From NCBI GenBank assembly GCA_000004985.1, contig GG738887.1: a stretch of 64,000 nt of DNA; one strand, given 5' to 3'. Below, piece by piece: positions 23,964 to 58,243 of this stretch; position 1 is the first letter of the stretch; each line of letters opens with the position of its first letter. The notes under the pieces were generated by a model. The model did no database searches. It was not told where the DNA came from and saw nothing but the letters and a program-made list of their open reading frames with translations. Source of the stretch: Naegleria gruberi. Its lineage: Eukaryota. Position numbers and translations under genes: made by a program.

Positions 23964-26900
23964 TTATTGATTATTAGAATGAGGTGTAACTTGTTCATCG
24001 GAAAAAGATATGTGTTGAGAAACTGTTGAGGGATGAATAGAAGGACGACGCTCTTGTTGCTGTTGTTGTAATTGTTGTAATTCAATAATTTCCTCCTCTG
24101 TCACCACTGTCTGGGCATGATGTTTATCTTTCAATAAATAGGTTTCACAAACACCCTTTCCTTTCACTTCAACACTTCTCTGTTCAAATTCAAATCCAAT
24201 ATCATACACTCTCTGATAGGTCGATCTGGAAATTTGAATTCTTCCTGCCATTGAAGTTGATTCCATTCGAGAAGCAGTATTGATAGTATCACCCCATAAA
24301 TCATAGGCAAACTTCTTCTTTCCAATCACACCAGCAACAACTGATCCTGTATTGATTCCAACTCGAATATTCAATTGATTTTGAGGATGTTCAATATTAT
24401 AATTTCTAATTACTTGAAATGTATCAATTGCAAATCTCAATGTTCTTTCAGGATGATCAGATTGTGGATTATTATGTAAACCTCCAACACAGAAATAGGC
24501 ATCACCAATTGTCTTGATCTTTTCCAATGAATAAACATCTGTCAAATCATCAAATCCATTCACAATGGATGACAACATCAAAACCAATTCGCTTGGATTC
24601 ATTCCACTTGACATTTTCGTAAAACCAACCATATCACTAAAGAAACAAGTAATATCACTAAATCTCTCAGCAATAAATGTCTCACCTGATTTCAACTTGC
24701 TTGCAACAGCATCTGGCAAGATATTTCTCAATAAATTTTCAGAATTTTTCTTCTCCTCCGCTAGAAGTGAATTTTGCTTCTTCTCTGGAGTGATATCTCT
24801 CATAAAGCATGAAACAACCATTGAGTTACTCTTTCCCTTGTCAGAGCTGCCAGAAATTCTCGAAACAAAGATGGTGACCATGGCTGGAAACTTTGTGGAA
24901 TTCTTTCTAACACATTCCAATTCAATAACATCTCCATGTTTGACATTTTCATCAATTTCACTCTTGATTGTTTTCAAAATGTTGGACAACTTTTCACCAG
25001 AGTGCTCATCAAATAAATGCATAAAGTTTGTTCCCAGAACATCAGAAATTGACTTTCCGAACATGTTCTGAGCTGGTCCATTGAATAGAATGATATCTCC
25101 ATTTTCGTTTGCTAATAGTGCACCATCTACCATTGAACTCATTAATTTCTTCAAAGAATCTTGATCTGTAGCTGAGGATTGTTTTAGCTTTCGTCCAGTC
25201 AAATAGTTCGTTCCAATAGAGTTGTACAAGGCAAAACTCTTGAGTCCATCATTTGATTCTATGAATTCTGTGGACAGATAATTCAGGAATGCTTTCATAT
25301 TGGTTATTTCGTGATCATAGGTTTGGAAACTGATGAAAATCATGTATTGTAATATGAGCATTGAAGTTATACCGAAAATCAAGAATACAATTGAAATTGT
25401 AGTGGAAGGAAGAGATGTCAAACTGACCAATGTTGTGAGAAAATCTCTAAACTTGTCATAAACCATATCACACATATTAAATAGTGTTAGCAATTCTGCG
25501 AATGCTTCTTCAGATTGTGTTGAAGCATAGGAAGGATTGAAGAACTTCTCGCTCACTTGTCCTGCCAGTATTGTGAATGTAGACATGTACTTTTGAAGGC
25601 CATAACAATCTTTTAACAATTCATTACTTTGTCCAATAATTTTGTTTCCATTAGATTTCCAATTATAGTCAATGGAGGAATTGGTGCAAGTCGATAGACC
25701 AGTAATAATCTTATCTAATTTGGAGTATTTCCCAACGAGTGGTGTTGTTATTCCATCTTGGCCATAAATAACCTGATCATAAATGGTTGCCGACAAATCA
25801 ATGAATTGTCTGATTTCTGTTTTCATTGTTTGCAATTGTGAATTATTCGAAACCAAAAATGGGCTGTTAATGAATTTTCCAGATGGCAATGACAAGTAAA
25901 TAAACAATTCATTCAGTCTAATAGTAACTCTATGAACTGTTCTCAAAAATACACTCAGCAAATCAACATTGTAAATGGCAGATGAAGCAGTTGAAATATT
26001 CATTGAAATTTCATAATAAATCAAACCAGAAGACAACATGAAAACTGTCACAATTAGAAGTGCCAATATCAGAGAGAAGGCCTTTGGTTGCAAGAGAGGA
26101 TTTTTCTTCAAGTGCTTGGCATCATCTTTTGTCTTTTCTTCTAATTTGTGATAAATTATTCCAACAAAATCTTTTGGAATTTTCTTGTACAGAGATGTGA
26201 TCTTACTGAACCATGTCATCTCACTCCTTGAAATCAAAATGAAAATAACGTAAATCATCGTCATTACTGAGGAGGATGTGAAAATATAGGCCAATAAAAT
26301 AATATTCAACTGGTGAGTGTTTGCTCTTTCGCTTTCCTGGAATGACTTGCAGAATTGGAGATAATTATCGGCTAAATATCTTCTATTTAAATAAATGTAC
26401 ATGAAACTGTAACTCTTTGTTGTTTCATTGTATTGCTTTTCTCCAAAGTTCAAAAATTGCTCAACATGATGCAAGAATTCTTGAGAAACTTCACTCATTG
26501 AAACATTTTTTGAGAAGGTGTTTACAAATTCAATTGATTTAGGATCTGTTGTTGAAATTGGAATTAAAATTGGACTTGCTCTCTCTGTAAAGTCATTATA
26601 CATGTTACTTGTAAATTTACCAGATTGTGAATTGGAAATTAATGTTTCCAAATACCCCTTATGCTCCAAATATCGATTTCTGAAGGTTGATGTGAAATAA
26701 TTCAATTCATACATTCGACTCGAGTTCTTTAACCATGATTGTCCTTCATTTGCGTAAACCTCTGTCAAGATTTGATTCATTCTTGCAACTCTTAGTAATG
26801 CACCTGGTGTTGAACCAGGAATGCAACTCTGCAATACAAGAGGAGTAGAAACAACTCTCTCATTATAAACAATACTCAGAATGAAAATGACAATTAACAA

Positions 26901-29279
26901 GACATGCATCAAAACTGACAAGAATAGAAAGACTGAGATTCTCAGTTTGGATTGGAATGGAGCATTGATGGCAGTTCTGAAGAAGGTTTCCTTCTTGTCA
27001 ATTCCTTGATTTTCGACACCTTCGAAATCCATCTCATTCCCATTGAATTGACTTTTTCCATTTAGGGCTGAACCACTTTCATCTCTTTCAGTACTAATAT
27101 CTTCATTATTGGTGGACATTTCCACATTGGATGAGGGCACAATCTTATTCTTGAATTTCTTTGCTTCGTAATATGATTGTGGATTGTGATGATTGACATT
27201 CTTTGATCTCGATTCTTCTTCTTCCATTGCAGCTGCTTCTTCAAACAATGAAGTAGATAGTTCCTTATCGAATTTGAATTCCTCAAGGTAGGACGCATAA
27301 AAACGAATCACTGTCTTATCGTGACTGTGAGCTTTGGTAAGATTGAGGAAATTCTGGTCACAGAATAGTGTTAGGACAGAAGCTCTGCTATTAATTTGTG
27401 AAAGTTTGGTTTCGTTTGGAATATCGTTCAACATTTCCTTCCAGAATGATTTATGAACAATTCGAAGCTCAGCAAGGGTTATTTCTAATTCTGTAATTGT
27501 GTTTCTTACTTCCATATTTGTCTTGGTTAGCTCGTTGAGTGTAATTTCAATTTCTTTTTGTTTTTCAGTGATAAGAACTCTCTTTAAAGTTTGATGACAA
27601 TGTTTAAGAGCCTTTGCCAGTAGATAATTTGCAAATTGAGATCTGTGATCATCTTGCCAAATGTAGTTGACCAAAACACTTGAAATGAGCAACATTTCAG
27701 TATTAAGGAAGGATTTCTGCTGAGAAATGGATTTCACAAAAGCAATAGCCATTAATGGATCACTGACAATAGTCACACCGTAATGATCGGGGGAGTGATG
27801 TTTCACATTTTGCCCAATTGAAAATTGTAAAAACAACATCAAGTGTCTTAGAGATAATTGTTCACAAACAATGAAAATGGGAACTGCCTCTCTTTCAATA
27901 ATGTTGTAAAGTGATAAATCTGCTCTGCTCTCAGTTATTTCACAGACACTAATCTTGGTTTTGAAAATATTTCTTATTTGTCTGCAAACAACAAGTGTGT
28001 AAATTTCCAAAGCAGTAAAAGCAAGAATGAAAAATAGAATTCCCAATCCAATACTCAATCCCATCATTCCAAGACCCAAATCACTCAACAGATTTACATT
28101 GACCAATGAGCTAATCAATACTCCAATACTAACTCCAAATCTTGCACAAACAATTCCAAAATAGAGTGAATTCATCATTCGATGATAGAATGGTAAACTG
28201 TAAATGACGAGAGGAATGTTGATAAAGCTCAAAATGAGATGAACAATCGCTCTCCCCATCATGTAATTCGGTGGAATGAAGAACATGATTAACAATTCCA
28301 ATCCTATCGTGCAAATGGTTGGTGCCAATATAAAGTTATCCTTCGTCACAAAAGGAATTCCAACATTGGGTGTATTGATTGGCAATAAAAACACAGAGAA
28401 ACTCCAACTCACAAATGTAATCATCATTCCAATCAAACTCATGACAATTAAAATAGTATTTGTTTTAGAATAACATTGAACTGATGGAAATCTTGACAAT
28501 CCAGAAACACTTGCTGTCTGATCTTCGACATTGATTTGAATATTTGGATTACAATCAACAAAACTGCTCATAATAAATAAGGCAACTGGTCCAATAAACG
28601 ATACTACTAATGAACAATACATCCCAACCTTGTCAAATATTTTGTAAATTCCTTCACATCTCTTCTTCATTCCAATAATCATCAAGATAATATTCACCAA
28701 TGAAATCAATGTAAATAGGACAGAAAGTGCAATTATTCCCTCATAAGGAATGGCATCTGTTGATAAAGTGAGTGGATAATTCAATACTCTAAATACCCAT
28801 CCTCCTTCAAATCCAAACGGTGAAGTATTATATTCATTATTTATGGTACTATTAGATGAAAGTATACTAGAATACTCCTGATGAGAAGTCAATGCAGGTA
28901 ACCACATTCCAATCCACAACATGTATAAAAACCATAACGATATAGCCAATCTAGCCAGTCGTATCTTCCACGGGACTGTTACAGGCAAACCTTCTACATA
29001 GCTGCCTTTGCTGTTGCTAAACCTTGTGAGGGTGTTCATCCTCATCTTGCTACATAAATACATCATTGATAGATATTCATTAAAGGTTTTGAATAAGGAG
29101 CTGGCAAAAGAGGCAGAAGTTATTGAAGAACCACCATCTGATGAAGAGGTGGAAATAGATGATCTTCTGCCTAATGTTGATTCCATTCTTTTCTTGTTGT
29201 TGAATAAATTATATTCATGCCAACAGCATTGGCATTGTAGTTTTTGATAGGTTTTGCCAGGAGAAGATGTGAACCACAT
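23964..29279 (-). CDS. Polytopic membrane PAS-domain class III adenylyl cyclase (single catalytic domain, homodimer type); apparently intronless
   Basis: Continuous 1786-codon minus-strand ORF. The ORF-track start at 29324 is TTG; the first in-frame ATGs are at 29279 (MWFTSS) and 29186 (MESTLGRRSS, A-rich context). There are two hydrophobic blocks (about 8 and about 5 predicted TM helices) separated by a roughly 400 aa cytosolic coiled-coil region. A PAS-like segment (GALLANENGDIILFNGPAQNMFGKSISDVLG...) follows. The cyclase homology domain carries all canonical residues: FFSDMVGFT and KTIGDAY (two metal Asp), K immediately before TIG and YDLWG (Lys/Asp, ATP specificity), and NTASRME (Asn/Arg). 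The C-terminal poly-Q tail ends SNNQ-TAA at 23964. Confidence 0.85.
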   Translation of the reverse strand: MWFTSSPGKTYQKLQCQCCWHEYNLFNNKKRMESTLGRRSSISTSSSDGGSSITSASFASSLFKTFNEYLSMMYLCSKMRMNTLTRFSNSKGSYVEGLPVTVPWKIRLARLAISLWFLYMLWIGMWLPALTSHQEYSSILSSNSTINNEYNTSPFGFEGGWVFRVLNYPLTLSTDAIPYEGIIALSVLFTLISLVNIILMIIGMKKRCEGIYKIFDKVGMYCSLVVSFIGPVALFIMSSFVDCNPNIQINVEDQTASVSGLSRFPSVQCYSKTNTILIVMSLIGMMITFVSWSFSVFLLPINTPNVGIPFVTKDNFILAPTICTIGLELLIMFFIPPNYMMGRAIVHLILSFINIPLVIYSLPFYHRMMNSLYFGIVCARFGVSIGVLISSLVNVNLLSDLGLGMMGLSIGLGILFFILAFTALEIYTLVVCRQIRNIFKTKISVCEITESRADLSLYNIIEREAVPIFIVCEQLSLRHLMLFLQFSIGQNVKHHSPDHYGVTIVSDPLMAIAFVKSISQQKSFLNTEMLLISSVLVNYIWQDDHRSQFANYLLAKALKHCHQTLKRVLITEKQKEIEITLNELTKTNMEVRNTITELEITLAELRIVHKSFWKEMLNDIPNETKLSQINSRASVLTLFCDQNFLNLTKAHSHDKTVIRFYASYLEEFKFDKELSTSLFEEAAAMEEEESRSKNVNHHNPQSYYEAKKFKNKIVPSSNVEMSTNNEDISTERDESGSALNGKSQFNGNEMDFEGVENQGIDKKETFFRTAINAPFQSKLRISVFLFLSVLMHVLLIVIFILSIVYNERVVSTPLVLQSCIPGSTPGALLRVARMNQILTEVYANEGQSWLKNSSRMYELNYFTSTFRNRYLEHKGYLETLISNSQSGKFTSNMYNDFTERASPILIPISTTDPKSIEFVNTFSKNVSMSEVSQEFLHHVEQFLNFGEKQYNETTKSYSFMYIYLNRRYLADNYLQFCKSFQESERANTHQLNIILLAYIFTSSSVMTMIYVIFILISRSEMTWFSKITSLYKKIPKDFVGIIYHKLEEKTKDDAKHLKKNPLLQPKAFSLILALLIVTVFMLSSGLIYYEISMNISTASSAIYNVDLLSVFLRTVHRVTIRLNELFIYLSLPSGKFINSPFLVSNNSQLQTMKTEIRQFIDLSATIYDQVIYGQDGITTPLVGKYSKLDKIITGLSTCTNSSIDYNWKSNGNKIIGQSNELLKDCYGLQKYMSTFTILAGQVSEKFFNPSYASTQSEEAFAELLTLFNMCDMVYDKFRDFLTTLVSLTSLPSTTISIVFLIFGITSMLILQYMIFISFQTYDHEITNMKAFLNYLSTEFIESNDGLKSFALYNSIGTNYLTGRKLKQSSATDQDSLKKLMSSMVDGALLANENGDIILFNGPAQNMFGKSISDVLGTNFMHLFDEHSGEKLSNILKTIKSEIDENVKHGDVIELECVRKNSTKFPAMVTIFVSRISGSSDKGKSNSMVVSCFMRDITPEKKQNSLLAEEKKNSENLLRNILPDAVASKLKSGETFIAERFSDITCFFSDMVGFTKMSSGMNPSELVLMLSSIVNGFDDLTDVYSLEKIKTIGDAYFCVGGLHNNPQSDHPERTLRFAIDTFQVIRNYNIEHPQNQLNIRVGINTGSVVAGVIGKKKFAYDLWGDTINTASRMESTSMAGRIQISRSTYQRVYDIGFEFEQRSVEVKGKGVCETYLLKDKHHAQTVVTEEEIIELQQLQQQQQERRPSIHPSTVSQHISFSDEQVTPHSNNQ

Positions 29280-29885
29280 GTGTTGTATGAAACATGTAAT
29301 ATTTCCAAACTTCGGCCAATCCAAGTAGATATGAGAAGTGATGATGTTTTTGGTTTTAGTACTTTAAAGACATTCCAGTAAGATTGAAATACTAAAGCGA
29401 TGATTCCTTAATGTAATAAATACAAAAGTAATTCGAATCACGATGAAGATTGTTGATCGAATCTATCCAAATGTTCTTGGCACGCCTAATATTTATCAAA
29501 ATGTCTACTTTGATAAACATCATAGTTTGATTGCTTTTAAAACAAATCATGCACATTACTAAATTATTACTGCACTTGTTAATAGGAAATTAGAGCCTTC
29601 CGTCGTTCATATGAACTATTTTTGTTACATTTGATTATGAATAATACTAATATTGCTCATGTCTCTACACTTGCCTCCTTCATTGTGATATTTTTTAAAT
29701 AATTAATATTAATAAATATTGAAACTTTAAAATTTTTTAACAAAAGATAAATTGTGGAAAGTAACGATTTTGATCAATCCCAACAAATTTGTTGCTGTCT
29801 CCGAAGCAAAAGAACAAATCATCACACAATATTGAAAGAACAGTAAATTTCAAGAGCGCCAAAATACAAAAGATTTTTAAAAAAT

Positions 29886-31053: not shown

Positions 31054-32553
31054 TTAATCCATTTCTGTAGTATTGATTTGAACATCTGATAAAGTTCCAT
31101 TATGTAAGGATCTAAGCAATTTAGTCTTAATAAGTTTTACATTTTTGGAAAGAAGAGGATATCTAAATACTTGCAATCTTTGGTTATTCCATTCAACTAC
31201 TAATAATTCCTGTCGTTTTTCATCAAGGGCGCAACCAGTTGGTTTGGTTAACTCGCTCTTTTCAATACCTGCCTCTCCAAATGAAGTAATAAATTGAAGT
31301 TTTGAATTAAAAATCTGAATTCTATCATTCATCGAATCACAAACGATAATATTGCCATTCGTTCTATCGATACAAAATCCTTCTTGACAAGCGAATTGTC
31401 CTGGTTGATTTCCATGACCATTTTCAATTTTTCTTATCAGAGAGCCATTCAACTTGGACAAGACAAGAATTCTGTGATTTTCACGGTCGGAAACTACCAA
31501 ATTTCCATCAAGATCAAAATCAATATCCTTTGGTCCATCGAACTGGGTGTCTCCACTTCCTTTTGATCCAAAATCTCTAAGAAAATCACCATTCTTTGAA
31601 AGGACTACAATTCTATGGTTATCAAAATCACATATATAAATATCTTCATTGGTTGTATCAATAACCAGACCTCTTGCCCAATTTAGATTTGGATAACTTT
31701 TCCAAATCAATTTAGATCCATCATATGAATACTTGTAAACATAATTGTCGTCACAAGTGAAAATAATACTATCATCAACCTCACTCACAACCAGACATCT
31801 AGGATAAGATGATAAACTAATATGAAATTTAAATTGCCTAGTGCCCAATTCAAACACTGCAATTCTTCTATTGTACGTGTCTGTGACATAGAAGATATTC
31901 CTTTCGTGATACAGAGTCACATCCAAAGGATATGCAAAGGATGAATCTTTCGAAGTCTCACTCGTACAATACAGCGTGTCAAATCCAAGCATTGGTTTTC
32001 TCTTTACTCCACAATTAATATTCATAGGAAAGCCGTTAACAAATTTCTTATTCTCTCCAATCACAACTTGACAACAAACTGCAACATTACAGTCATCAGC
32101 AAGTAAATCCTTAATTTTATCTGGAATAGTAATCATTATTGGTATTTCCTTTGATGCTACACTCCTAGTCACTCCATCAATTTCCAATTCACTAACATCA
32201 ACTTGTTGAAAGTATGATGAATATCGTTTTTCTGCAATTATGTTATTTCCACCATATTCTTCATCACCGGAAAGTCTTTCCAATGTTACAGAAATTACAA
32301 TTTCATCTTCTGGAAAGCTACTCGCCAATTGATCAAATTCATCATCAGATCGAGTTGTTCCATCTTGTTGCTGCTGTTCATTAATAAAATCCAATTCTAC
32401 AGTAAATTCAATATTACTTCCGCTCTTGTACTTTCGGTCCGAGGTTAGATTTTGCCATTCGATCACTCTTGGATAAATAAAAGATGATGCTGAAGAACTT
32501 TCGGAAGAAGAGATTGGGATGGCGTGGGAAATAATTTCCTCCCTTGATGACAT
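31054..32553 (-). CDS. NHL-repeat (six-bladed beta-propeller) protein, 499 aa, single exon
   Basis: Real ATG at 32553 in an AAAAATG context. The C-terminal two thirds contain repeated NHL signatures (YVTDTYNRRIAVFE, YICDFDNHRIVVLSKNGDFLRDFGSKGSGDTQFDGPKDIDFDLDGNLVVSDRENHRILVL, IIVCDSMNDRIQIFN, LLVVEWNNQRLQVF). The N-terminus is Ser-rich with a Q-rich stretch. Confidence 0.8.
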   Translation of the reverse strand: MSSREEIISHAIPISSSESSSASSFIYPRVIEWQNLTSDRKYKSGSNIEFTVELDFINEQQQQDGTTRSDDEFDQLASSFPEDEIVISVTLERLSGDEEYGGNNIIAEKRYSSYFQQVDVSELEIDGVTRSVASKEIPIMITIPDKIKDLLADDCNVAVCCQVVIGENKKFVNGFPMNINCGVKRKPMLGFDTLYCTSETSKDSSFAYPLDVTLYHERNIFYVTDTYNRRIAVFELGTRQFKFHISLSSYPRCLVVSEVDDSIIFTCDDNYVYKYSYDGSKLIWKSYPNLNWARGLVIDTTNEDIYICDFDNHRIVVLSKNGDFLRDFGSKGSGDTQFDGPKDIDFDLDGNLVVSDRENHRILVLSKLNGSLIRKIENGHGNQPGQFACQEGFCIDRTNGNIIVCDSMNDRIQIFNSKLQFITSFGEAGIEKSELTKPTGCALDEKRQELLVVEWNNQRLQVFRYPLLSKNVKLIKTKLLRSLHNGTLSDVQINTTEMD

Positions 32554-33989: not shown

Positions 33990-35368
33990 TTATGGTTGAA
34001 CATTCCAATCATTCTTTTCATCCCATTCTCTTACTCGAATTCTCTTTTCTTTTGTCAAGTTGGCTCCTTTCAATAGAACTGTATTAACCAAATTAGATTC
34101 CTGACTAAAGTCACGAGGTCCATAATTGCAGGTAATTGTGTATTGTGGCAATAAACCCATTCTAAGATAACATTCAGCCACAAATTCAGAACAGAATACA
34201 TTAGCATCATTGGATTGAGTATTTCTCTTAATGACACATTTCAATAATTCAGATTTTGAAGTTTCGTATTTCTTATCAATGGAAATCTTCAAATAATCAA
34301 CAAGTGTTGGGAATTGATCCACAATATTCTCATCCTTTGGTCTATTATCCATTGAAGGAATGTTCAATCTTCTCAAACAACACAAATCAGTTGGATCTCT
34401 TTCCAAATAATCCATAAACCACTTTCTCAATTCTACTAATTGAATTCCACCACCTTCCTTATTGTCCACAGTATCAGTTTCAGATTCTGCAACAAAAACA
34501 GTTGAAAATCTTGATGAAGCATCAACTTGAACCTTATACAATTCCAATAATTCTTTCGGTGGATTTCTAATAATAATCGACAAGTGAGACCAAGTTGATG
34601 AAAATCCCAATTGAATAGCTTTTGAGAAAGTTCCCTTTCCAGAATGCAACAAGACATCACCAGTTCTCAATTCATCATAAATATCCTCCAAATACTCTAC
34701 ACCAAACAAGTTATCCAATCGTTGAGATTCCTTTTCTGAAATATTTCCACTCAAAATTGATTTTAAACTTCTTCCTCTACTGGCGAAACCTCTTCCCTTC
34801 TCATTCTTGTATTCATTTAAAAAGTTGGTCAAGTCAATTTGTGGAATATTCTCAGAGAGTGAATCAACGAAACCATCATTAATTTGAAAGTTGAGAGGTT
34901 CAATTCGAATATGTAAACTTCCTTTTGGAACTCCTTGCAAGTTTAGCCACATTTCGAATGGTTTCTTCTCTTCCAATTTGAGAGTAGAAAGTGAAACTGC
35001 TATGAATCCCAATGAATCATCTCCTGTGAATTTGTCCTTATCATATAATTGACAAATTAGGACATATTGTTCTGGATTGTGATCGAGTGGAATTTCAAAA
35101 GTTTCATTCCAGACAGGATTTAATGAGTTGGAAATTACATGAGTCTTGAACTGTTCCTTCTTTTTACCTCCGAGCCAGGCAACACAGTATGGATCAGAAA
35201 CGTCACCTTTTTAGTGATTGTTAATTTTGACACCTGTCAAAACTTACCATTTTTACCAGAATCAGTGTTGATCAAATTTTTAGCTTCCAAGATGGTGAGT
35301 TTCATGTGGAAGGTTTTGAAAGAGCTGAAAGTCTTGTCAACTCCAAAGTGTTTTGGTGTGATTGGCAT
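33990..35368 (-). CDS. C2-domain protein with C-terminal LRAT/NlpC-P60-superfamily (His...Cys) domain, about 445 aa, 2 exons
   Basis: The ORF-track start (35012) is a TTG artefact; the frame continues upstream. Exon 1 is 35248-35368 (ATG at 35368 after an A8 run; MPITPKHFGVDKTFSSFKTFHMKLTILEAKNLINTDSGKN). Intron is 35207-35247 (GTAAGT...CACTAAAAAG, 41 bp, phase 1). Exon 2 is 33990-35206. The spliced N-terminus gives a textbook C2 domain (GDVSDPYCVAWLGGKKKEQFKTHVISNSLNPVWNETFEIPLDHNPEQYVLICQLYDKDKFTGDDSLG). The C-terminal region has TWSHLSIII (His) and NVFCSEFVAECY (Cys), resembling the H-box and NCEHF box of LRAT/PPPDE-like papain-fold domains. Confidence 0.72.
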
Positions 35369-35791: not shown

Positions 35792-38042
35792 ATGTCAAAA
35801 AAAATGTCATCAATTAAATTGATTACTGTCATTTGCTTTTTGTGCATGTTAAATGTTGTTTTTGCACAAATTCCAAACAACAAGGCTGTTATGGGAGGTA
35901 ACTTGGGAGGTATGTAGAATAAGCCAAATATTTAATTTACTTTCGAATAATAGGCTTAGGTAAGTTTCGTATTATTTTACATCGAGTTTCGAATATTTTC
36001 ACACAGCCGACTATTCTAATAATTTGGTTTTCATCGATGCCATGAGAACTGCTCGTTATGTAAGTGCTTTTATATATTTTTTTTAACATTCAAAGTGGGG
36101 TCAAGCAGATGCTCCATGGAACACTTTACCAGTTGACCAATACAATCAAGATTCGTATCCAGTTGGATATTCTGCTGGTACAGTTGTTTTCATTCAACCT
36201 GCAGGTACTGTCAATGGAACTTATTATTTTCAAGGTGATGGACAGTTGACAGTCGATTTGGTTGCTAGCTCAGATTGTGAATTGGTCAATTTCACATATT
36301 CAAATGGAAAGACAACTGGTTATATTGTAGTTGGTGATCAAGCTACTCAACTCATGTTAGGATTCACTCAACCAACAAACACATCTTTCCAAAACATTCG
36401 TCTAATTCGTCCAGGTTTCACCATTCAAGATGCTGACACTCTCATCTTTCTTCCAAGCTTTATTCAAGATATTAAGGATTTGAAATTGATTAGAATGATG
36501 GATTGGTGCTCTACGAATGCAAATCCAATTACAAAATGGAGTGAAAGAGCTAGATCAACAATTTCAACATTCTCAACAAGCAAAGGAATTTCATACGAAA
36601 CTATAATTGCTTTGGCAAATATGCATGATAAGGAAGTTTGGGTAAATATTCCAGCAATGGTCGATGAAGATTACATTTTACAAATGGCAAAGCTTTTTAA
36701 GGAAAAATTGAGTCCAAATCGAGTTTTTTATTTGGAATATTCGAATGAAATTTGGAATTCAGGTTTCGAACAAACAGATTGGAATTTTAATTATGCAGAA
36801 TATTTGGTAACTGTTGGGAATATGACTATTTTCAATTATGATCAGGTGAATAACAAGTATACTTGGGGATTTAGAAGAACTGGTTATGTGGCCTATCGTA
36901 TTTCTGAAATATTTGCATCTGTTTTTGGAGAAAGCAAACGAAACACTCAATTTAGAGTTGTTTTGGCTGGTCAAGGTGCCAATTCATATATTGTTAGTCA
37001 AGGTTTACAAATGATTGAGAAATTTGGAGCTCCTTCCAAATATCTCTATGCCATCGCCTCAGCTCCATATTTCCAAATTGACAATAATTATTCTGGAACC
37101 ATGTCCAAAGATGCTGTTCTAAATGAATTGGAATATCAAATGAATAGATCACCAGCTGTCTATGATTATGGTAATTACATTTGCATGGCCAAATTCTATG
37201 GCCTCAAACATATGGCTTACGAAGGTGGACCAGATACTTTCGGACCTTACAATATTCAATCTAAGAGATTGGCATCATTCGAACCAAGAATGAAACAGAT
37301 TACCATTGATTTTTTGAGAAATTGGTTCAGTTATGGATTTGATGCCTTCGTGTGGTATACTGTTAGCTATGGAGGTTATGATTCACAATATGGAACTTGG
37401 GGATGGGCTGAATATATTTCAGATTCGTATAAGCCAAAGAGAGAGGGAATTCTCTATATGGTCAATAATCCAAACGTTCCTTACAATACTACTGTATTTA
37501 AACTATTTGCAGGACCAGTCAATTCAATTTTAAGCACTCCTGCTGTCAAGCATCAATTGGCTGACTCTTCTTCAAGTGCTACTGTTCTTGCCTCAGCTCA
37601 ATTGGACTCTGTTTATTATTATCCAATGATTAATACTAGACGTGGTATTTATTCAGTCAGAATTGAAGCTGCCAATGTCTTGAATGGTGGAGGATATCTT
37701 GGAATTTATATGAATAATGTTAAATTAGGATCTGTTCTTTCGAATTCTGCTGTATATAATTTTACAATTCCAATTAATTCTGGAATTATTGAAAAGGGAC
37801 TCAATGTTGTTACAATGGTCATTGAAACAGACAGAGCTCTCAATATTAGAACTGTCAATGTCACTCTAATTCAAGAAGTTGCTGAGCCAGTTCCAACACC
37901 AACACCAATTCCAGCACTCATTTCCACAGTTAGCAATAATGATAATAGAACAATTACAATTTCCACCTCTTCAACTCTCACCATGAACGTAATGATTGCC
38001 TTATCTGCATTATTATTCATCACTTTATTCATCCAATTGTAA
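35792..38042 (+). CDS. Secreted glycoside-hydrolase-like protein (TIM-barrel clan GH-A-like, NE motif) with Ser/Thr/Pro linker and C-terminal hydrophobic (GPI-anchor-like) tail; 3 or 4 exons
   Basis: ATG at 35792 (a second ATG at 35804). The signal peptide is MSKKMSSIKLITVICFLCMLNVVFA. Exon 1 is 35792-35909 (phase 1). Intron is 35910-36006 (GTATGT...CACACAG); alternatively two introns (35910-35953 and 35960-36006) flank a 6-nt micro-exon GCTTAG. Exon 2 is 36007-36059. Intron is 36060-36095 (GTAAGT...CAAAG, 36 bp). Exon 3 is 36096-38042, in frame with the ORF-track ORF. LEYSNEIWN resembles the catalytic acid/base NE(P) motif of clan GH-A. The C-terminus is EPVPTPTPIPA...TISTSSTLT followed by MIALSALLFITLFIQL. 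Confidence 0.65.
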
Positions 38043-39492: not shown

Positions 39493-41051
39493 TTAGATAT
39501 TGCACTGATTTTTAAATTCATCTCCCATGAATTGGCAAGACAATGATAAAAACCATGCAGAAAATAATGACAGTGTCAATGGACATAATAAATAATGCCA
39601 CAACAAGAGCTCACAAACTTGTTCCTGTCCAAAATCATTGTTTAAACTGGAGAGTGATGTGAGTGACATGGCCATTGGCATTGAAAATTGGATGAGAATA
39701 ACGAGAATTAATAGAGGATCGTTGGCAGGCAAGATTTTCAAGTAAATTCCAACATAAACTAAACTAACTCCTATTAAAGGAAATATGATTAATTTGGTAA
39801 TTAGTGAAATTACAATTGCTAATGGATGAATTTTCTTAATTTTGAATATTTTCAAAATTCCAATCAGTGTCTGTTTGAATTTTTGCAATATTGCCTGAAT
39901 TCGGTTTTGATTAATTTGCCCGTTCATATTGGAAACTTCAACCGAATCGTTTTCTTCTTCATTCATCAAGGTAATTCCCAAATTTCCTCCCAAAATGATA
40001 AGAGCAGCAGGAGACACAGCTTGTGAAAACACTTTACAAATATTCTTCAATGAGGAAACAAACATTGGTGGATTCTCAATTAGAAATTCCTTAGCTGGTT
40101 TGATTAGTGCTATTACAATGGCAACAAAAATGGAAATCAAGGGAGGAGATAATAAGTTCGACAATAATTCTTTGAAATTTTCCCAATTGTTTTGAAAAAA
40201 AGTTTCAATCGTTCAATGATGGTTTGGTTGCGTTGAATTTGGTGATTTTCAGGTTGCATTTCAATGGCCAAATTTAGCTGAGAAATAGTTTCAGATTCCT
40301 CTATATGTTCTTTGATTTCAGGTATTTCTTCAAATATTTCATGTTCCAACTCATTAGAAAGTGAAATTTCATTCGAATCTTCTCTATTCTCCTCCATAAT
40401 TGACTGATTTACCAATAATTCTCTTTTCAATCGAGCAGCTCCATATCTAAATGCATTAAATCCAATCGTACAAAACACAAACTCTGTAGGAATGATAAAA
40501 ACCGAAAGTGTGGTCAATGCACTTTTGTGAGCTTCATCAAATGTCATTTTGTAAACTGGATTTGAAGATAAAGTTGAAACATTACACAATGCAACAATGT
40601 ACACCAATGGTAAGGACACAGAAGTATGACAAACCAATGTCAAAGTCAAAACAGTTCTAGAAATATCATCCAATCGATCCTTCCAAAACCATTTCAAAAA
40701 CAACAACTTTCCCAACACAATTCCCAACACTTCCAGAATGACACTGTAAAGAAAGACCATATAAATCTTTTGGAATACTTGCAAGGAAAAGCTTGTGGTT
40801 AAATTAATGAAAAACATGCAAGGAATAAAGAGATTGAACCACAACTTGGAAAGGAATCGAATTCTGTCACTATTCAAAATTTTCACTGGTTTGAATTTGG
40901 CCAAAATGAATCCGATGGAACATTCCAGAATGACTTCAATGGTAGAGCTCAAGCTGGTGAGAAATAGCACGATCAATACAGACATGGACATATTCGATCC
41001 TTCTCCTGATGATTGATTTGTGGAGTAAAGTTGTGGAAGGTTTAGGGACAT
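39493..41051 (-). CDS. Auxin-efflux-carrier (AEC/Mem_trans) family membrane transporter; reading frame interrupted by a 1-nt frameshift (or sequencing error) at an A7 run 40195-40201
   Basis: Two abutting same-strand ORFs, 40137-41051 and 39493-40164. The ATG at 41051 has a poly-A context. The N-terminal half has 5 TM helices (ILECSIGFILAKF...), then a hydrophilic Glu-rich loop. The C-terminal half has about 5 TM helices with a PAALIILGGNLG-type motif. Adding or removing one A/T in the homopolymer at 40195-40201 fuses the frames as ...IIERLKLFFQNNWENFKELLSNLLSPPLISIF.... No GTAAGT donor is available to explain the break by splicing. Confidence 0.7.
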
Positions 41052-45094: not shown

Positions 45095-46093
45095 CTAATG
45101 AGTTTCTTCAATTTTAATAACTCTTGGCATTTCAATACCATCCTGTTGCACAGATTGTTGTTGAGTAGGACAATTGCAACTTCCTGGATTTGTTGGATTA
45201 GTCGGATTAGTTGGATTTGTATTCGAATTCATGTACACAACTTGCAAATCAGGAACATAATTCTTCACATAATTAATCCAATAAGTAGTATTTGTATAAA
45301 CACCAAAAGCTCCTTGTCTTCCACATCCTTGAGGTCCATACGAAACGAGGCCAATTAAACCCATCGTATAAGAGTTGCCACTTTGACGAATCCAGTGGAG
45401 AGGGCCACCACTATCTCCTTGACAACTATTGATTCTATTTCCTTCACCTACACATAATTGATATGGAGATTCCATTCCCAATCCTTGTTGATTACAGACA
45501 GATGACTGTTGAAGTGGCATGTAAGCTTTTTGAGCTTTTGAAGGTAAATCATTGGAAGAATCTGAAGTTCTACCCCATCCAGTGAGTGTTACGAGTGTTT
45601 TGAATGGGATTTGACCACCTTCAATGCCAATTCTTTGAACTCTGTTTTGGGAAGCAGTGCCGAGTGGTAAGTCACTTGTCAATTCGAGCATGGCAATGTC
45701 ATTTCTGATGTATTGAGAATTGTAGTTTGGATGGACGATCTTTCTAGCTACTTTGCTAATGACACACTTTGAGGAAGGATTGGAACAATCGATATCTTGA
45801 TTGGCGACACCTGCCAAAACTCTAACCTTTGACACATCCATTCCATCAACTGAAAGACAGTGAGCAGCAGTGAGAATCCATCTTGAAGCAATAACACTAC
45901 CTCCACAGAAGTGTTGATACTTGACTCCATCTCTGGAATATTGTAAAGAAACTAAATGAGGAAATTGATTGTCATAATCAATGTCAGTACCACCTGCCAC
46001 ACTGATTCCTCTCTTGTTTAGTTCGGTTTCCTTGGAAATGACGATACATGCTAGGAGAGCACAGAAAATGATTGAGAAAATTAGTTTGTTCAT
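45095..46093 (-). CDS. Secreted S1-family (chymotrypsin-fold) serine protease, 332 aa
   Basis: ATG at 46093. The signal peptide is MNKLIFSIIFCALLACIVIS. The catalytic triad motifs are TAAHC (His), NDIAMLEL (Asp) and GDSGGPL (Ser), with conserved disulfide Cys. The residue six before the catalytic Ser is Asn (NSCQGDSGGP), not the Asp of trypsin. The C-terminus has (TNP)4 repeats and a tail. Confidence 0.85.
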   Translation of the reverse strand: MNKLIFSIIFCALLACIVISKETELNKRGISVAGGTDIDYDNQFPHLVSLQYSRDGVKYQHFCGGSVIASRWILTAAHCLSVDGMDVSKVRVLAGVANQDIDCSNPSSKCVISKVARKIVHPNYNSQYIRNDIAMLELTSDLPLGTASQNRVQRIGIEGGQIPFKTLVTLTGWGRTSDSSNDLPSKAQKAYMPLQQSSVCNQQGLGMESPYQLCVGEGNRINSCQGDSGGPLHWIRQSGNSYTMGLIGLVSYGPQGCGRQGAFGVYTNTTYWINYVKNYVPDLQVVYMNSNTNPTNPTNPTNPGSCNCPTQQQSVQQDGIEMPRVIKIEETH

Positions 46094-47515: not shown

Positions 47516-48241
47516 ATGAATCAAAGTAAGATTAGTAAGCAACATAAAATGAAATGCAATAAGGGAACATTTCACATTATTAATCTCAATCAGTGGTCAA
47601 TCACTGAAGACAGAGCTATGAAAGATTCCATTATTAAGGTCCACACTAATTCCACAATGTTTGGTAAGCATTATCAGAAGAGGGTTAAGGGCTTGACTGC
47701 TTGGGCACTTCCATATGCACATCTTAAGGATGTGTCATTTCCAAACAAGTTGGATGCACTTGATGTGAAAGATGTTGATTCGTTCCAACAACAGTTGTTG
47801 AAATACACCATTGAGAGGATTGAAAGAAAATTGGTTTTCAGAATTCAAGATGGAATCTCCAAAGTAGTTGATGGAAGACAGCATAATTTTGTTGGTGACA
47901 TGTCGTTTACCCAATTCCAATTGTTTTTGAAGTATTTGGTTTCGAATTGTATGGGTGATTATTCAACTGAAGGTGATTATGTTAAAGATCATGGTGACAT
48001 TACTTCATTTCTCATTCATAGCGTCGAATTCAAAACCATTCCTGGAAGAACAATGCCTCCACTTTCCACTTCTGATTGGAGTTTTCTTAAAGGGATAGAT
48101 AAGCAAACGGGAGAATGTAAGCGAGGATTTGTGAGCCAGTTGAAGTTTGTATATTCCGAATATACAGGTCTAGTTCGAGCTGATATGATATACTGGACTC
48201 AAAGATACTGTGATAAATCAAATTCATGGATTTTTTGCTAA
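47516..48241 (+). CDS. Hypothetical protein, 241 aa
   Basis: ATG at 47516 after an A-rich leader; stop TAA at 48239-48241. Its 3' end overlaps the convergent minus-strand gene by 18 nt. No recognised domain. Confidence 0.45.
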   Translation: MNQSKISKQHKMKCNKGTFHIINLNQWSITEDRAMKDSIIKVHTNSTMFGKHYQKRVKGLTAWALPYAHLKDVSFPNKLDALDVKDVDSFQQQLLKYTIERIERKLVFRIQDGISKVVDGRQHNFVGDMSFTQFQLFLKYLVSNCMGDYSTEGDYVKDHGDITSFLIHSVEFKTIPGRTMPPLSTSDWSFLKGIDKQTGECKRGFVSQLKFVYSEYTGLVRADMIYWTQRYCDKSNSWIFC

Positions 48242-50767: not shown

Positions 50768-51256
50768 TAGTCTTAATTCGTATTTTTTTTTAGATGTTGT
50801 ATGATGAATTACTAAATCCCTAATACACCTTCCTTTTTGCTTAAAATTTTTATCTCAAAACGCGGCATTGAGGAAATTGATAGTGAAGGAGCTGGCAGAC
50901 AAGTAATGAGATTCGAAATGTTGTTGGAATGGTTGTTATTTGTTTGAGGTTTTGTGAGGTGTAATCAATTTCCTAATCATTGAAAAATACGAAACTAGAT
51001 GCAAGATTATTAATTACTGGTGATGCAATCTTTGAAGTCAAGTGATGTTTCGCCAATTTTACCTCCTTTATTCTTGAAATCTCCTCTCAAGACATTAAGA
51101 AAGTCATCTCGATGGCCACTTTCGTGTTTATCTCTAAAGTTTCGTACAAATTGAACACACTTTCAAAACACATCATGTCAAGTACAACAACTCAATTTTT
51201 ATAATTAAGACATCTCTTTGAATCTCTTATTGGAGAAACTACAACACCAAAAAAAA

Positions 51257-56686: not shown

Positions 56687-58243
56687 ATGCAAACACCGCT
56701 CACACACAAACTTTCACTAACCTCTTTCAACACGGAACGAAGAGAACTTCCCACTCTCGAAAATTCCAATCTCATCAATGAAAGTTCCTTTCAAATATTA
56801 TCAAATTTTATTGCAAATTGTCCTCCGCAAACTGAGGAGAAAATGGATGGATACGGAGAAGCTCTTCCGGGTGAAGGACATGATGCTCTCAATTATGGAT
56901 TGAATGGTTGCTTGATGAGAGTGAATGGAGCATTGAGAAATTATCAAATTTTGAATAATGTTCCACTGCAAACATTCTTTTCGTATTACATGTATGAAGA
57001 TGGAAAGGATTCGAATGATGAAATTTTGAGAAATGATAAAGAAATGATTGACTTGTTCAAGGGTGGAATTGTGGAATATGTGGATTGGTTTTGTTGCTCT
57101 ACCGAAACTTCACAAAGTTCAAGAAGTGAGATTAGAATAAGCAAGTTGAGTGGAGATTATTTTCATTTCGTACAATCAAATGCTTTTGGCATTGGAACTA
57201 GAACTTTTGAAACAGATCAGTATTTTGCCTTGCATTTGGTGGACTCAAAGGAAACATGTAGTACTATTCCACTAATTGAATTCAAGTCATTTTGTGGAAT
57301 ACAAGAAGGTTTCGTTCATCAAGCCAAAATTGAAGATATTAGAAAGTCATCAAAGATTCCTTCTGAATGGAGTATGGAAAAGTTTGTGAGATTTTTAATG
57401 CTATGCTCCAATAGTTTACATCACAACATTAAAGAATGGGAACAAGTCGATACATTTCAAACAATTTTGACTGGACGAAACGTTTCGATTATTACTGATC
57501 TACAAATTGAACAGGAAACGATCATGATTTATAGAGAGGAAGATGATTATTATGAACAATTTAGTGAGGAAGAAAGAAATCTAGTAGGATATAATTTGAA
57601 TCATGGAAATCTCTTTAAGGAACAACTCTCTGGTCAATCAGTAATCGAGAAAGTATTAGAAACTTTTAGAAAGAATGAAAATTCTAACGAGTTGACCTTC
57701 TTACTGAACCTTCAACAGACCATTCATAATCTCTGTGTTAAAGCCACATTCATTGAAAAGCCAGATAATTCTCCAGTATTACAAAGAATTTCAGGTCAAC
57801 TTTACAACTTTAAAAATTGTAATTCGTTTGTAATTGAAATTGGTGAATATGTCAATAATTACAGAGCTCATGCAGAGGCAATTTGTAATGTAAATGGTAA
57901 AGAGATTCCTCTCCAATTAGATAGTTCCACTGTGAATGGTTACACATTCGAAAGATTTAATTTACGAATCAAGAATTCTCAACAAGTTTTGATTGAAATT
58001 ATTCGAACTCCAGAAGTTTCGAATATTGAAATAATAGATCCACAATTTAAACAAGATTTATTGGGAGAATTGAGTCAAGATGTTACAGATATGGAATTTG
58101 CTGGTTTACTCTATCATTGCCTCAAGAAAACTAATCTTTACATTACATACAGTTCATCTTTTCATACAAGTGGAAACAAACATGGATATCACGATGTTTT
58201 TGAAGAGAATACAATATTTCAAAATCGAAAAATGTTCTGGTAA
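56687..58243 (+). CDS. Hypothetical protein, 518 aa, single exon
   Basis: ATG at 56687 after an A8 run with a TTTAAAAAATA TATA-like element about 25 bp upstream. Long ORF with normal composition. No assignable motif. Confidence 0.6.
   Translation: MQTPLTHKLSLTSFNTERRELPTLENSNLINESSFQILSNFIANCPPQTEEKMDGYGEALPGEGHDALNYGLNGCLMRVNGALRNYQILNNVPLQTFFSYYMYEDGKDSNDEILRNDKEMIDLFKGGIVEYVDWFCCSTETSQSSRSEIRISKLSGDYFHFVQSNAFGIGTRTFETDQYFALHLVDSKETCSTIPLIEFKSFCGIQEGFVHQAKIEDIRKSSKIPSEWSMEKFVRFLMLCSNSLHHNIKEWEQVDTFQTILTGRNVSIITDLQIEQETIMIYREEDDYYEQFSEEERNLVGYNLNHGNLFKEQLSGQSVIEKVLETFRKNENSNELTFLLNLQQTIHNLCVKATFIEKPDNSPVLQRISGQLYNFKNCNSFVIEIGEYVNNYRAHAEAICNVNGKEIPLQLDSSTVNGYTFERFNLRIKNSQQVLIEIIRTPEVSNIEIIDPQFKQDLLGELSQDVTDMEFAGLLYHCLKKTNLYITYSSSFHTSGNKHGYHDVFEENTIFQNRKMFW

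What the first reader, a model, noticed from the sequence alone, without database searches (positions are those of the whole stretch)
23964..29279. Unusual polytopic PAS-adenylyl cyclase: two membrane blocks but only one (C2-positioned) catalytic domain, all catalytic residues intact, no introns
The 5.3 kb ORF encodes about 8 TM helices, a 400 aa cytosolic coiled-coil region, about 5 more TM helices, a PAS domain and a single class III cyclase domain. The layout mimics the 6TM-C1-6TM-C2 plan of metazoan and dictyostelid 12-TM adenylyl cyclases, but the C1 position holds a non-cyclase region and a PAS sensor precedes the catalytic domain. The catalytic domain keeps both metal-binding Asp (FFSDMVGFT, IGDAY), the Lys before TIG and the Asp of YDLWG (ATP rather than GTP specificity), plus Asn/Arg (NTASRME). 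It should therefore act as a symmetric homodimer, like ACG-type or bacterial PAS-cyclases. It is also the only multi-kb intronless gene in an otherwise intron-rich locus. This is the best candidate for an undescribed signalling protein in the window.
Basis: partly seen in the sequence, partly recalled or inferred. Interest (0 to 1): 0.7.

Follow-up and report, generated by a model that had tools for sequence, protein, structure and literature searches.

The report
TmcB-like membrane PAS adenylyl cyclase, Naegleria
This is a real, intact Naegleria gruberi gene for a 12-helix membrane protein that ends in a PAS sensor and one fully equipped cAMP-making domain; it belongs to a large, uncharacterised family found across heterolobosean amoebae, and its membrane part is related to the Dictyostelium TmcB protein, not to animal-type adenylyl cyclases.

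Summary
The ORF is real: 23964-29324 (-), 1786 codons. It is 100% identical to an existing N. gruberi "predicted protein" model of 1740 aa that starts at the ATG at 29186. Pfam gives Guanylate_cyc (1.3e-56), PAS_9 (5e-15) and TPR_TmcB (3.6e-13). All six class III catalytic residues are present, with Lys/Asp (ATP-type) specificity. One chain therefore carries everything needed for a symmetric homodimeric adenylyl cyclase.

The "6TM-C1-6TM-C2 mimic" reading does not hold.
- The membrane layout is 8 + 4 helices.
- The middle cytosolic region is a TmcB-type TPR domain with no profile similarity to a cyclase domain (hhalign 0.2%).
- The two membrane blocks are unrelated to each other and to solved tmAC membrane domains.

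The gene is not unique. The same TMN-TPR-TMC-PAS-CTE-CHD architecture occurs in at least 8 N. gruberi paralogues and in N. fowleri, N. lovaniensis, Willaertia, Acrasis and Pharyngomonas.

Verdict: a new architectural variant of a known enzyme class, uncharacterised and of moderate interest. The main point is the fusion of a TmcB-like module, linked to cAMP signalling in Dictyostelium, to a cyclase.

The parts
23964..29186 (-). Coding sequence as in the public N. gruberi model: 1740 aa plus stop, single exon. An in-frame upstream ATG at 29279 would add 31 aa.
   Evidence: P0001 is 100% identical over 98% of the 29279-start translation.
28950..29186 (-). Ser-rich N-terminal tail (res 1-79), predicted cytosolic and poorly conserved.
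   Evidence: Family alignment; low pLDDT.
27981..28949 (-). Membrane block 1 (res 80-402): 8 hydrophobic helices, of which TM1 is the weakest. An invariant DCN...C cysteine pair (C212/C238) sits in the predicted outside loop between TM3 and TM4.
   Evidence: Hydropathy of single sequences and of 67 aligned family members; invariant columns; positive-inside pattern.
26952..27980 (-). Cytosolic all-helical region (res 403-745) containing the TPR_TmcB domain, followed by an acidic, disordered linker. The Pfam hit covers res 559-660, which is 27207-27512.
   Evidence: Pfam 50 bits against a cut-off of 27, matched in 7/7 family members. Helices and pLDDT below 30 for the linker. No similarity to the CHD.
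26844..26951 (-). TM9 (res 746-781).
26310..26843 (-). Predicted extracellular loop 1 (res 782-959): helical bundle with a beta-hairpin. It carries a conserved Cys pair (C788/C946) and a conserved N-x-S sequon.
26229..26309 (-). TM10 (res 960-986).
26100..26228 (-). Short basic cytosolic loop (res 987-1029) with the conserved K..IGKIYH motif, modelled as an amphipathic helix.
   Evidence: 21% K+R.
26004..26099 (-). TM11 (res 1030-1061).
25413..26003 (-). Predicted extracellular loop 2 (res 1062-1258): second helical bundle, with a conserved Cys pair (C1167/C1194).
   Evidence: It shows weak colinear profile similarity to the TM9-loop1-TM10 unit.
25323..25412 (-). TM12 (res 1259-1288), the helix that leads into the cytosolic output part.
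24789..25169 (-). PAS domain (res ~1340-1466).
   Evidence: Pfam PAS_9 5.4e-15 and PAS 9.5e-8. Only weak PDB matches, to heme-PAS proteins.
24681..24788 (-). Conserved helix linking PAS to the catalytic domain (res 1467-1502, ...EEKKNSENLLRNILPDAVASKLKSGE). It occupies the position of the cyclase transducer element.
   Evidence: Aligns to the helix preceding C2 of AC9 (residues 1027-1050) and to the N-terminal extension of Rv1625c-type Cya. Nearly invariant in the family. CTE concept from PMC5995499.
24117..24680 (-). Class III cyclase homology domain (res 1503-1690) with the complete D-D-K-D-N-R set.
   Evidence: Pfam 1.3e-56; alignment to AC9 C1 and C2; family conservation.
23967..24116 (-). 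Low-complexity Gln/Ser-rich C-terminal tail (res 1691-1740), not conserved.

Best explanation
The gene encodes a receptor-type, membrane-bound adenylyl cyclase of a family that, among named organisms, was found only in Heterolobosea. The chain runs as follows (P0001 numbering):
1. A cytosolic N-terminus.
2. An 8-helix membrane block.
3. A cytosolic TmcB-type TPR domain.
4. Four more helices, arranged as two hairpins. Each hairpin displays a ~180-aa disulfide-bonded, glycosylated helical bundle on the outside of the membrane.
5. After TM12, in the cytosol: a PAS domain, a conserved transducer helix, and one class IIIa-like catalytic domain.

Shown here:
- The domain content.
- The intact ATP-type catalytic residues.
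- A topology that agrees with hydropathy, the positive-inside rule, and the placement of cysteines and sequons.
- Conservation of the whole architecture across Heterolobosea.

Inferred:
- Two chains dimerise, so that each of two symmetric active sites is built from the metal-binding Asp pair of one chain and the Lys/Asp/Asn/Arg of the other. This is as in Rv1625c-type and other homodimeric class III cyclases.
- A signal sensed by the extracellular bundles, and/or by the PAS domain, shifts TM12 and the PAS-to-transducer coiled coil. This changes the register of the catalytic dimer and so the rate of cAMP synthesis.
- The cytosolic TPR domain is a docking or regulatory surface.

The ligand is unknown.
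For: - Real gene, identical to a public N. gruberi model.
- Guanylate_cyc, PAS_9 and TPR_TmcB all score above the Pfam cut-offs.
- The six catalytic residues were verified against AC9 C1 and C2. The CHD's best PDB relatives are AC9, AC8, AC5 and the mycobacterial Cya/Rv1625c type.
- 29 of 36 family CHDs keep all six residues. Lys is kept in 35/36 and Asp in 36/36.
- There are 8 + 4 hydropathy peaks in the family average.
- K+R makes up 21-33% of the predicted inside loops and 3-10% of the outside loops. Sequons are enriched in the two long loops. Three conserved Cys pairs all fall in predicted outside loops.
- AF2 model of residues 740-1300: pLDDT 84.2, pTM 0.77.
- The full architecture is found in about 40 cluster representatives at 50% identity. 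These come from Naegleria spp., Willaertia, Acrasis and Pharyngomonas.
Against: - There is no experimental datum for this protein or any family member: no activity, substrate, dimerisation, localisation or transcript.
- The PAS domain has no recognisable cofactor residues. There is no conserved His and no LOV Cys motif.
- TM1 is weakly hydrophobic. If it is not a membrane helix, the N-terminus would lie outside.
- The 8-helix block was modelled poorly (pLDDT 65). It could have a function of its own, for example as a transporter or channel.
Confidence: 0.65

Rival explanations
1. Relic 12-TM adenylyl cyclase. In this view the protein descends from a 6TM-C1-6TM-C2 enzyme whose C1 domain decayed into the present cytosolic region.
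For: The total of 12 predicted helices falls in two blocks separated by a long cytosolic region. The CHD's best sequence matches are mammalian tmACs.
Against: - The middle region is a TPR_TmcB domain above the Pfam cut-off in 7/7 members.
- It is all-helical in the model.
- It has 0.2% hhalign probability against the family CHD profile.
- The blocks are 8 + 4 helices, not 6 + 6, and are unrelated to each other (0.6%).
- A profile of the membrane part finds no PDB sequence, including tmACs.
Confidence: 0.03
2. Bifunctional fusion. The TmcB-like 8-helix block plus TPR would be an autonomous transporter, channel or scaffold. The cyclase is attached to it, as in alveolate P4-ATPase-guanylyl cyclases or the K+-channel adenylyl cyclase. 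The membrane module's own activity or conformational cycle would then regulate cAMP synthesis, rather than an extracellular ligand.
For: - Polytopic non-cyclase modules fused to CHDs exist. P0008 and P0028 are flippase-cyclases (see also PMC13466520).
- The TMN + TPR part also occurs with a single following helix and no cyclase on a metagenome contig (P0111).
- Dictyostelium tmcB is reported to regulate the cAMP pathway (PMC12750705, citing Muramoto 2005).
Against: - No transporter or channel family is detectable by Pfam or by PDB profile or fold search.
- Most cyclase-less ~800-aa hits turned out to be split gene models of full-length cyclases.
- The 8-helix block is poorly modelled.
Confidence: 0.2
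3. Obligate heterodimer. The protein would work mainly paired with a paralogue whose catalytic set is incomplete, which recreates an asymmetric C1/C2-like dimer with one active and one regulatory site.
For: Seven of 36 family CHDs lack one or more catalytic residues in partly complementary patterns. Examples are DDKDIK in a Willaertia member and TEKDNR in Pharyngomonas.
Against: This particular gene, and 29 of 36 family members, keep all six residues. That is the signature of homodimeric class III cyclases. Nothing here bears on pairing.
Confidence: 0.1

Closest known systems
Mycobacterial Rv1625c/Cya-type membrane adenylyl cyclases (PDB 7yz9, 5o5k, 4p2f)
   Same: - One class IIIa-like CHD per chain, carrying all six catalytic residues.
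- A helical transducer element directly N-terminal to the CHD.
- A membrane anchor proposed to act as a receptor, and a symmetric homodimer.
- Sequence match E ~6e-48 over the CTE and CHD.
   Different: Rv1625c has only 6 membrane helices. It has no PAS, no TPR domain and no large extracellular loops, and it is bacterial.
Mammalian membrane adenylyl cyclases AC9, AC8 and AC5 (PDB 6r3q, 8buz, 8sl3)
   Same: - Best overall sequence matches for the CHD. Both C1 (4e-29) and C2 (4e-33) align, including the helix before C2.
- 12 membrane helices in total.
   Different: - tmACs have two CHDs that split the catalytic residues between them, forming a pseudo-heterodimer. Here there is one complete CHD.
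- Their membrane cassettes are 6 + 6. Here the layout is 8 + 4, with no sequence relation.
- tmACs have no PAS and no TPR.
Dictyostelium TmcB/TmcC (tiny macrocysts proteins; Pfam PF25474 TPR_TmcB)
   Same: - The cytosolic helical-repeat domain matches the TmcB TPR model (50 bits against a cut-off of 27; 7/7 family members).
- The domain is embedded between membrane segments.
- tmcB is described as a regulator of the cAMP pathway (PMC12750705, citing PMID 15817229).
   Different: TmcB is not known to carry PAS or cyclase domains; this rests on my own knowledge and was not checked here. Homology of the membrane helices to Dictyostelium TmcB could not be tested, because no TmcB sequence was retrievable with these tools.
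PAS-linked class III cyclases of bacteria (for example cyanobacterial CyaB1-type GAF-PAS-CHD and LOV/PAS photoactivated cyclases) and engineered phytochrome-CTE-cyclases (PDB 6fht)
   Same: A PAS or PAS-like sensor is coupled to a homodimeric CHD through a coiled-coil and CTE (PMC5995499; 6fht hit).
   Different: Those proteins are soluble or simply anchored, with defined cofactors. Here the PAS has no recognisable cofactor residues and sits behind a 12-helix membrane module.
Bacterial periplasmic four-helix-bundle / NIT sensor domains (NasR 4akk; PcaY, Tar/Tsr, NarX/NarQ, TorS)
   Different: - Sequence identity is only 5-15%.
- No Pfam sensor family matches and there is no Foldseek hit.
- Generic helical bundles score similarly.
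- Here the two bundles sit on two successive helical hairpins of a single chain.
Polytopic-module cyclase fusions of protists (alveolate P4-ATPase-guanylyl cyclase; Paramecium/Plasmodium K+-channel adenylyl cyclase; Dictyostelium ACG; trypanosome receptor cyclases)
   Same: Each is a protist lineage-specific fusion of a non-cyclase membrane or ecto module to class III CHD(s) (one search hits P0008 and P0028; PMC13466520).
   Different: The membrane module here is a different one (TmcB-like). It has a single CHD and an intervening PAS domain.

Membership tests
Class III nucleotidyl cyclase, homodimeric adenylyl-cyclase type | Cyclase homology domain detectable above the curated threshold | tested here: met
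   PF00211: 191.6 bits against a cut-off of 21.9, covering profile positions 3-182 of 183.
Class III nucleotidyl cyclase, homodimeric adenylyl-cyclase type | Both metal-binding Asp and the transition-state Asn and Arg on the same chain | tested here: met
   FFSDMVGFT, IGDAY and NTASRME align to the corresponding residues of AC9 C1 and C2. 29 of 36 family members keep all six residues.
Class III nucleotidyl cyclase, homodimeric adenylyl-cyclase type | Lys/Asp pair specifying ATP, rather than Glu/Cys for GTP | tested here: met
   K in KIKTIG and D in YDLWG. In the family, K is kept in 35/36 and D in 36/36. The guanylyl cyclases in the same alignment show E and C at these positions.
Class III nucleotidyl cyclase, homodimeric adenylyl-cyclase type | Helical transducer element (CTE) immediately N-terminal to the CHD | tested here: met
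   NSENLLRNILPDAVASKLK aligns to AC9 1027-1050 (DWLLRNIIPYHVAEQLK). Matches to Cya/Rv1625c start 30-35 residues before the CHD. The segment is nearly invariant in the family.
Class III nucleotidyl cyclase, homodimeric adenylyl-cyclase type | cAMP synthesis and dimerisation demonstrated | not testable with these tools
   This needs an enzyme assay.
Metazoan/dictyostelid 12-TM adenylyl cyclase (6TM-C1-6TM-C2) | Two cyclase homology domains forming a pseudo-heterodimer | tested here: not met
   There is a single Guanylate_cyc hit. The middle region against the CHD profile gives hhalign probability 0.2%, and that region is a TPR_TmcB domain.
Metazoan/dictyostelid 12-TM adenylyl cyclase (6TM-C1-6TM-C2) | Two 6-helix membrane cassettes | tested here: not met
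   The layout is 8 + 4 helices. The blocks are unrelated to each other (0.6%). The profile of the membrane part hits no PDB chain, including AC9, AC8 and AC5.
TmcB/TmcC family (Pfam PF25474) | TmcB-type TPR repeat domain | tested here: met
   50 bits against a cut-off of 27, covering profile positions 23-124 of 125. It is matched in 7/7 family members, best E 2.3e-18.
TmcB/TmcC family (Pfam PF25474) | Homology of the flanking membrane helices to Dictyostelium TmcB | not testable with these tools
   No Dictyostelium TmcB sequence could be retrieved. The word-indexed searches with profiles returned only Naegleria and metagenome proteins, and the AFDB fold library was unavailable.
PAS sensor domains | PAS fold profile match | tested here: met
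   PAS_9 at 56 bits against a cut-off of 27; PAS at 32.5 bits against 22.6.
PAS sensor domains | Recognisable cofactor or ligand residues (heme His of FixL/DosP; LOV Cys motif) | tested here: not met
   Matches to FixL and EcDOS are weak (E 0.01-0.7). There is no His conserved across the family in the corresponding helix, and no NCRFLQ-type motif.
Periplasmic four-helix-bundle / NIT sensor domains | Fold: antiparallel four-helix bundle(s) continuous with the flanking membrane helices | tested here: met
Periplasmic four-helix-bundle / NIT sensor domains | Sequence-family membership (NIT, 4HB_MCP, HBM, CHASE3 and similar) | tested here: not met
   No such Pfam hit in any of 27 family sequences at E <= 1. 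Foldseek against the PDB finds nothing with E < 0.1.

The most novel reading that the evidence does not exclude
The fusion acts as a 'Rosetta stone' for the TmcB family. TmcB-like polytopic TPR proteins have no known molecular function, and Dictyostelium tmcB affects the cAMP pathway. On this reading they are membrane receptors or regulators that act directly on adenylyl cyclases. Heterolobosea would have hard-wired this pairing into one chain and added a tandem extracellular helical-bundle ligand sensor. That would make a new class of eukaryotic receptor cyclase, one that senses an environmental small molecule much as bacterial chemoreceptors do.
Probability: 0.3. Interest if true: 0.6.

Novelty: new variant of a known kind. 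Interest (0 to 1): 0.45.

Why it matters
Naegleria encodes roughly 80-100 cyclases (PMC9928731, quoting the genome paper), and almost none has a known input. This family pairs a standard, apparently active adenylyl cyclase output with a large conserved membrane module. That module has two predicted extracellular helical bundles and a TmcB-type TPR domain.

If the module is the sensor, the family gives a defined, testable entry point into how free-living and pathogenic heteroloboseans, including N. fowleri, read their environment through cAMP. It also suggests a molecular role for the otherwise unexplained TmcB proteins, which influence cAMP signalling in Dictyostelium.

It does not bear on the origin of animal-type 12-TM cyclases. 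The likeness to them is superficial.

Tried and rejected
- **Relic C1 idea.** I compared profiles of the middle region and the family CHD, and of membrane block 1 and block 2. Both were negative.
- **Sequence relation of the membrane part to solved tmACs or any PDB chain.** None was found.
- **Fold search of the whole 1197-aa N-terminal model.** The model is mediocre (pLDDT 65) and nothing was significant. The top hits were TPR proteins at E >= 0.14.
- **AFDB fold search.** It might have returned Dictyostelium TmcB, but the library was unavailable.
- **Two word-indexed profile searches** (N-terminal module; TPR region), intended to reach TmcB proper. They returned only P0001, P0030 and P0173 and were uninformative.
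- **Genomic locus of the partial paralogue P0030.** It is not on record.
No Pfam hit at E <= 1.
- **Heme- or flavin-binding PAS.** There are no conserved cofactor residues.
- **Literature.** I found no paper describing this architecture. TmcB itself is barely covered in the searchable library.
- **Another family member in the window.** I searched all window ORFs with my family HMMs and found none.
Full report
**What is in the sequence**

The window holds real bases only from 23942 to 61724 and from 62972 to 64000; the rest is N. On the minus strand there is one uninterrupted frame, 23964-29324, of 1786 codons. It has ATGs at 29279 and 29186. Translated from 29279, it is 100% identical to the public "predicted protein [Naegleria gruberi]" of 1740 aa (P0001). 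That model starts at 29186 and is a single exon. The window is therefore N. gruberi DNA. Its right end is a (TTTGGG)72 array, the candidate telomere repeat of this species (PMC3622300), so the gene lies about 34 kb from a chromosome end. All residue numbers below are P0001 numbers.

**Domain content**

Pfam finds three domains above threshold (the coordinates there are in the 1786-aa frame, offset 46):
- Guanylate_cyc: 1.3e-56, 191.6 bits.
- PAS_9: 5.4e-15, with PAS at 9.5e-8.
- TPR_TmcB (PF25474): 3.6e-13, 50 bits against a cut-off of 27.

A phmmer search of the C-terminal 411 aa against the PDB gives AC9, AC8 and AC5 as best matches, followed by the mycobacterial Cya/Rv1625c type. Both C1 and C2 of the mammalian enzymes align. 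In those alignments the query carries:
- the two metal-binding Asp of C1 (FFSDMVGFT, IGDAY);
- the Lys, Asp, Asn and Arg of C2 (KIKTIG, YDLWG, NTASRME).

The alignment also runs through the helix that precedes C2 (LLRNILPDAVASKL against LLRNIIPYHVAEQL). This is the position of the cyclase transducer element described for class III cyclases (PMC5995499). Since one chain has everything, a symmetric homodimer with two active sites is the expected form, as established for homodimeric class III cyclases.

**Membrane layout**

Kyte-Doolittle scans of single sequences and of the family average (67 and 48 aligned sequences) agree:
- Block 1 has eight peaks: 80-99 (the weakest), 148-175, 186-212, 241-270, 284-306, 309-333, 340-364 and 369-402.
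- Block 2 has four clear peaks: 746-781, 960-986, 1030-1061 and 1259-1288.

Block 2 is therefore two helical hairpins, each carrying a loop of about 180 aa. It is not a compact set of five helices.

With the PAS and cyclase in the cytosol, the topology that follows puts the TPR region and the short loop 987-1029 inside, and the two long loops outside. Three independent features fit this topology:
- K+R makes up 21-33% of the predicted inside loops and 3-10% of the outside loops.
- N-x-S/T sequons are about twice as dense in the long loops as in the TPR or C-terminal regions.
- The conserved cysteine pairs C212/C238, C788/C946 and C1167/C1194 all fall in predicted outside loops.

**Is it a mimic or relic of 6TM-C1-6TM-C2?**

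No, for four reasons.
- The middle region matches TPR_TmcB in all seven full-length relatives first found and is modelled as all-helical.
- hhalign of a family profile of this region against the family CHD profile gives 0.2% probability. The positive control, CHD against CHD, gives 100%.
- Block 1 against block 2 gives 0.6%.
- A profile of residues 66-1262 finds nothing in the PDB sequence set, which contains full-length AC9, AC8, AC5 and Rv1625c.

The shared total of twelve helices is a coincidence.

**The family**

The first, word-indexed search found only seven full-length relatives, in N. gruberi, N. fowleri and N. lovaniensis (31-35% identity). An exhaustive HMMER search with the N-terminal profile against 1.84 billion cluster representatives gave 480 hits at E <= 1e-3 and 108 at E <= 1e-30.

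I built HMMs for six segments (TMN, TPR, TMC, PAS, CTE, CHD) and scanned the 150 listed hits. About 40 representatives carry the complete colinear architecture, and most of the remainder are fragments.

Cluster look-ups name the following sources:
- N. gruberi, with at least eight paralogues;
- N. fowleri, with many paralogues, several of them split into two gene models;
- N. lovaniensis;
- Willaertia magna;
- Acrasis kona, where members are annotated "adenylate cyclase";
- Pharyngomonas kirbyi;
- unnamed metagenome and transcriptome sequences.

The architecture therefore spans these heterolobosean genera and is expanded in Naegleria. Of 36 family CHDs, 29 keep all six catalytic residues. The ATP-specifying Lys is kept in 35/36 and the Asp in 36/36.

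**The second membrane block**

A first AlphaFold run on residues 66-1262, using only seven sequences, was mediocre (pLDDT 64.8, pTM 0.41). Foldseek against the PDB found nothing significant with it.

A second run covered residues 740-1300 with 27 family sequences and was good (pLDDT 84.2, pTM 0.77). It shows long helices continuous with TM9-TM12 and a small beta-hairpin in loop 1.

- Generic bundles (talin, designed proteins) are interleaved with these.

Identity is 5-15%. Foldseek finds nothing, and no Pfam family matches any of the 27 sequences consistently. I therefore read this as fold-level resemblance, not membership of any of those families.

hhalign of TM9-loop1-TM10 against TM11-loop2-TM12 gives a colinear 197-column alignment at 42% probability, E 2.6e-4. 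This suggests, but does not prove, an internal duplication of a TM-bundle-TM unit.

**PAS**

The closest solved sequences are heme-PAS proteins (EcDOS, FixL), but only at E 0.01-0.7. The family has no conserved His in the corresponding helix and no LOV-type Cys motif. The PAS ligand, if there is one, is unknown.

**Link to TmcB**

[quoted passage not shown] 2005, PMID 15817229). A TmcB-type domain fused in one chain to an adenylyl cyclase is thus a suggestive gene-fusion link. I could not retrieve a TmcB sequence to test whether the homology extends into the membrane helices.

**Mechanism, with status of each step**

- Shown: the domains, the catalytic residues, topology-consistent features, and conservation of the family.
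- Inferred from established class III cyclase biology: homodimerisation with shared active sites, and control through the coiled-coil/CTE.
- Inferred from fold resemblance only: that the extracellular bundles are ligand sensors.
- Unknown: the ligand, the role of the 8-helix block and the TPR domain, and the role of the PAS.

**Rivals**

- A bifunctional fusion in which the TmcB-like module has its own activity (about 0.2).
- Obligate heterodimers with catalytically incomplete paralogues (about 0.1).
- The relic-C1 idea (about 0.03).

**Novelty and score**

The protein is already in public databases with these Pfam domains, and the large cyclase repertoire of Naegleria is well known (PMC9928731). 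I found no description of this architecture in the searchable literature. It is a new architectural variant of a known enzyme class, not a new kind of system. Interest: 0.45.

Noticed in passing
window 63570-64000: There are 72 tandem copies of TTTGGG running to the end of the window, G-rich strand 5'->3' outward. This matches the candidate telomere repeat reported for N. gruberi (PMC3622300). The window is therefore a chromosome end and the cyclase gene is subtelomeric, about 34 kb in.
   Followed up: partly
window 1-23941 and 61725-62971: Both stretches are runs of N, either masked sequence or assembly gaps. The first begins only 22 nt after the cyclase stop codon, so the 3' UTR and whatever lies downstream cannot be seen.
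   Followed up: no
window 51774-53735 (+), with 51218-51835 (+) just upstream: A 653-aa ORF has a weak, partial Guanylate_cyc match (E 1.3e-5, 25.4 bits against a cut-off of 21.9, profile positions 74-181 only). It may be a second, degenerate cyclase-like gene in the same subtelomeric stretch. My family HMMs do not hit it, so it does not belong to the TmcB-like family.
   Followed up: partly
P0030 (N. gruberi partial protein, 649 aa, on a 21.7-kb contig) compared with window 27312-29100: This is a mosaic near-copy of the gene's 5' half. The first ~120 residues are only about 50% identical and contain extra Ser-rich insertions. Identity then rises, and the copy is essentially identical from residue ~340 to 625, where the contig ends. 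It looks like a recent segmental (subtelomeric?) duplicate or a divergent haplotype with a conversion boundary. Its locus could not be fetched.
   Followed up: partly
family members P0047, P0157, P0107, P0137, P0059, P0062: A minority of family cyclase domains have lost metal-binding Asp or the Asn/Arg pair, in partly complementary patterns (for example DDKDIK and TEKDNR). This raises the possibility of C1/C2-like heterodimers between paralogues.
   Followed up: no
window 39493-40164 (-) and 40137-41051 (-): Two adjacent, overlapping minus-strand ORFs. The second carries a partial Mem_trans (auxin-efflux-carrier-like) match. They are probably one gene interrupted by a short intron or a frameshift.
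   Followed up: no
window 45095-46093 (-), 31054-32553 (-), 33990-35012 (-): Neighbouring intact ORFs encode a trypsin-family serine protease (1e-41), an NHL-repeat beta-propeller protein (1.5e-26) and a weak Peptidase_C92-like protein. Several other long ORFs have no Pfam match at all: 48224-50767, 36246-38042 and 56687-58243.
   Followed up: partly
window 24565-25071 (+): A 168-aa ORF lies antisense to the PAS/CTE/cyclase coding region. It is most likely a by-product of codon composition and not a gene.
   Followed up: no
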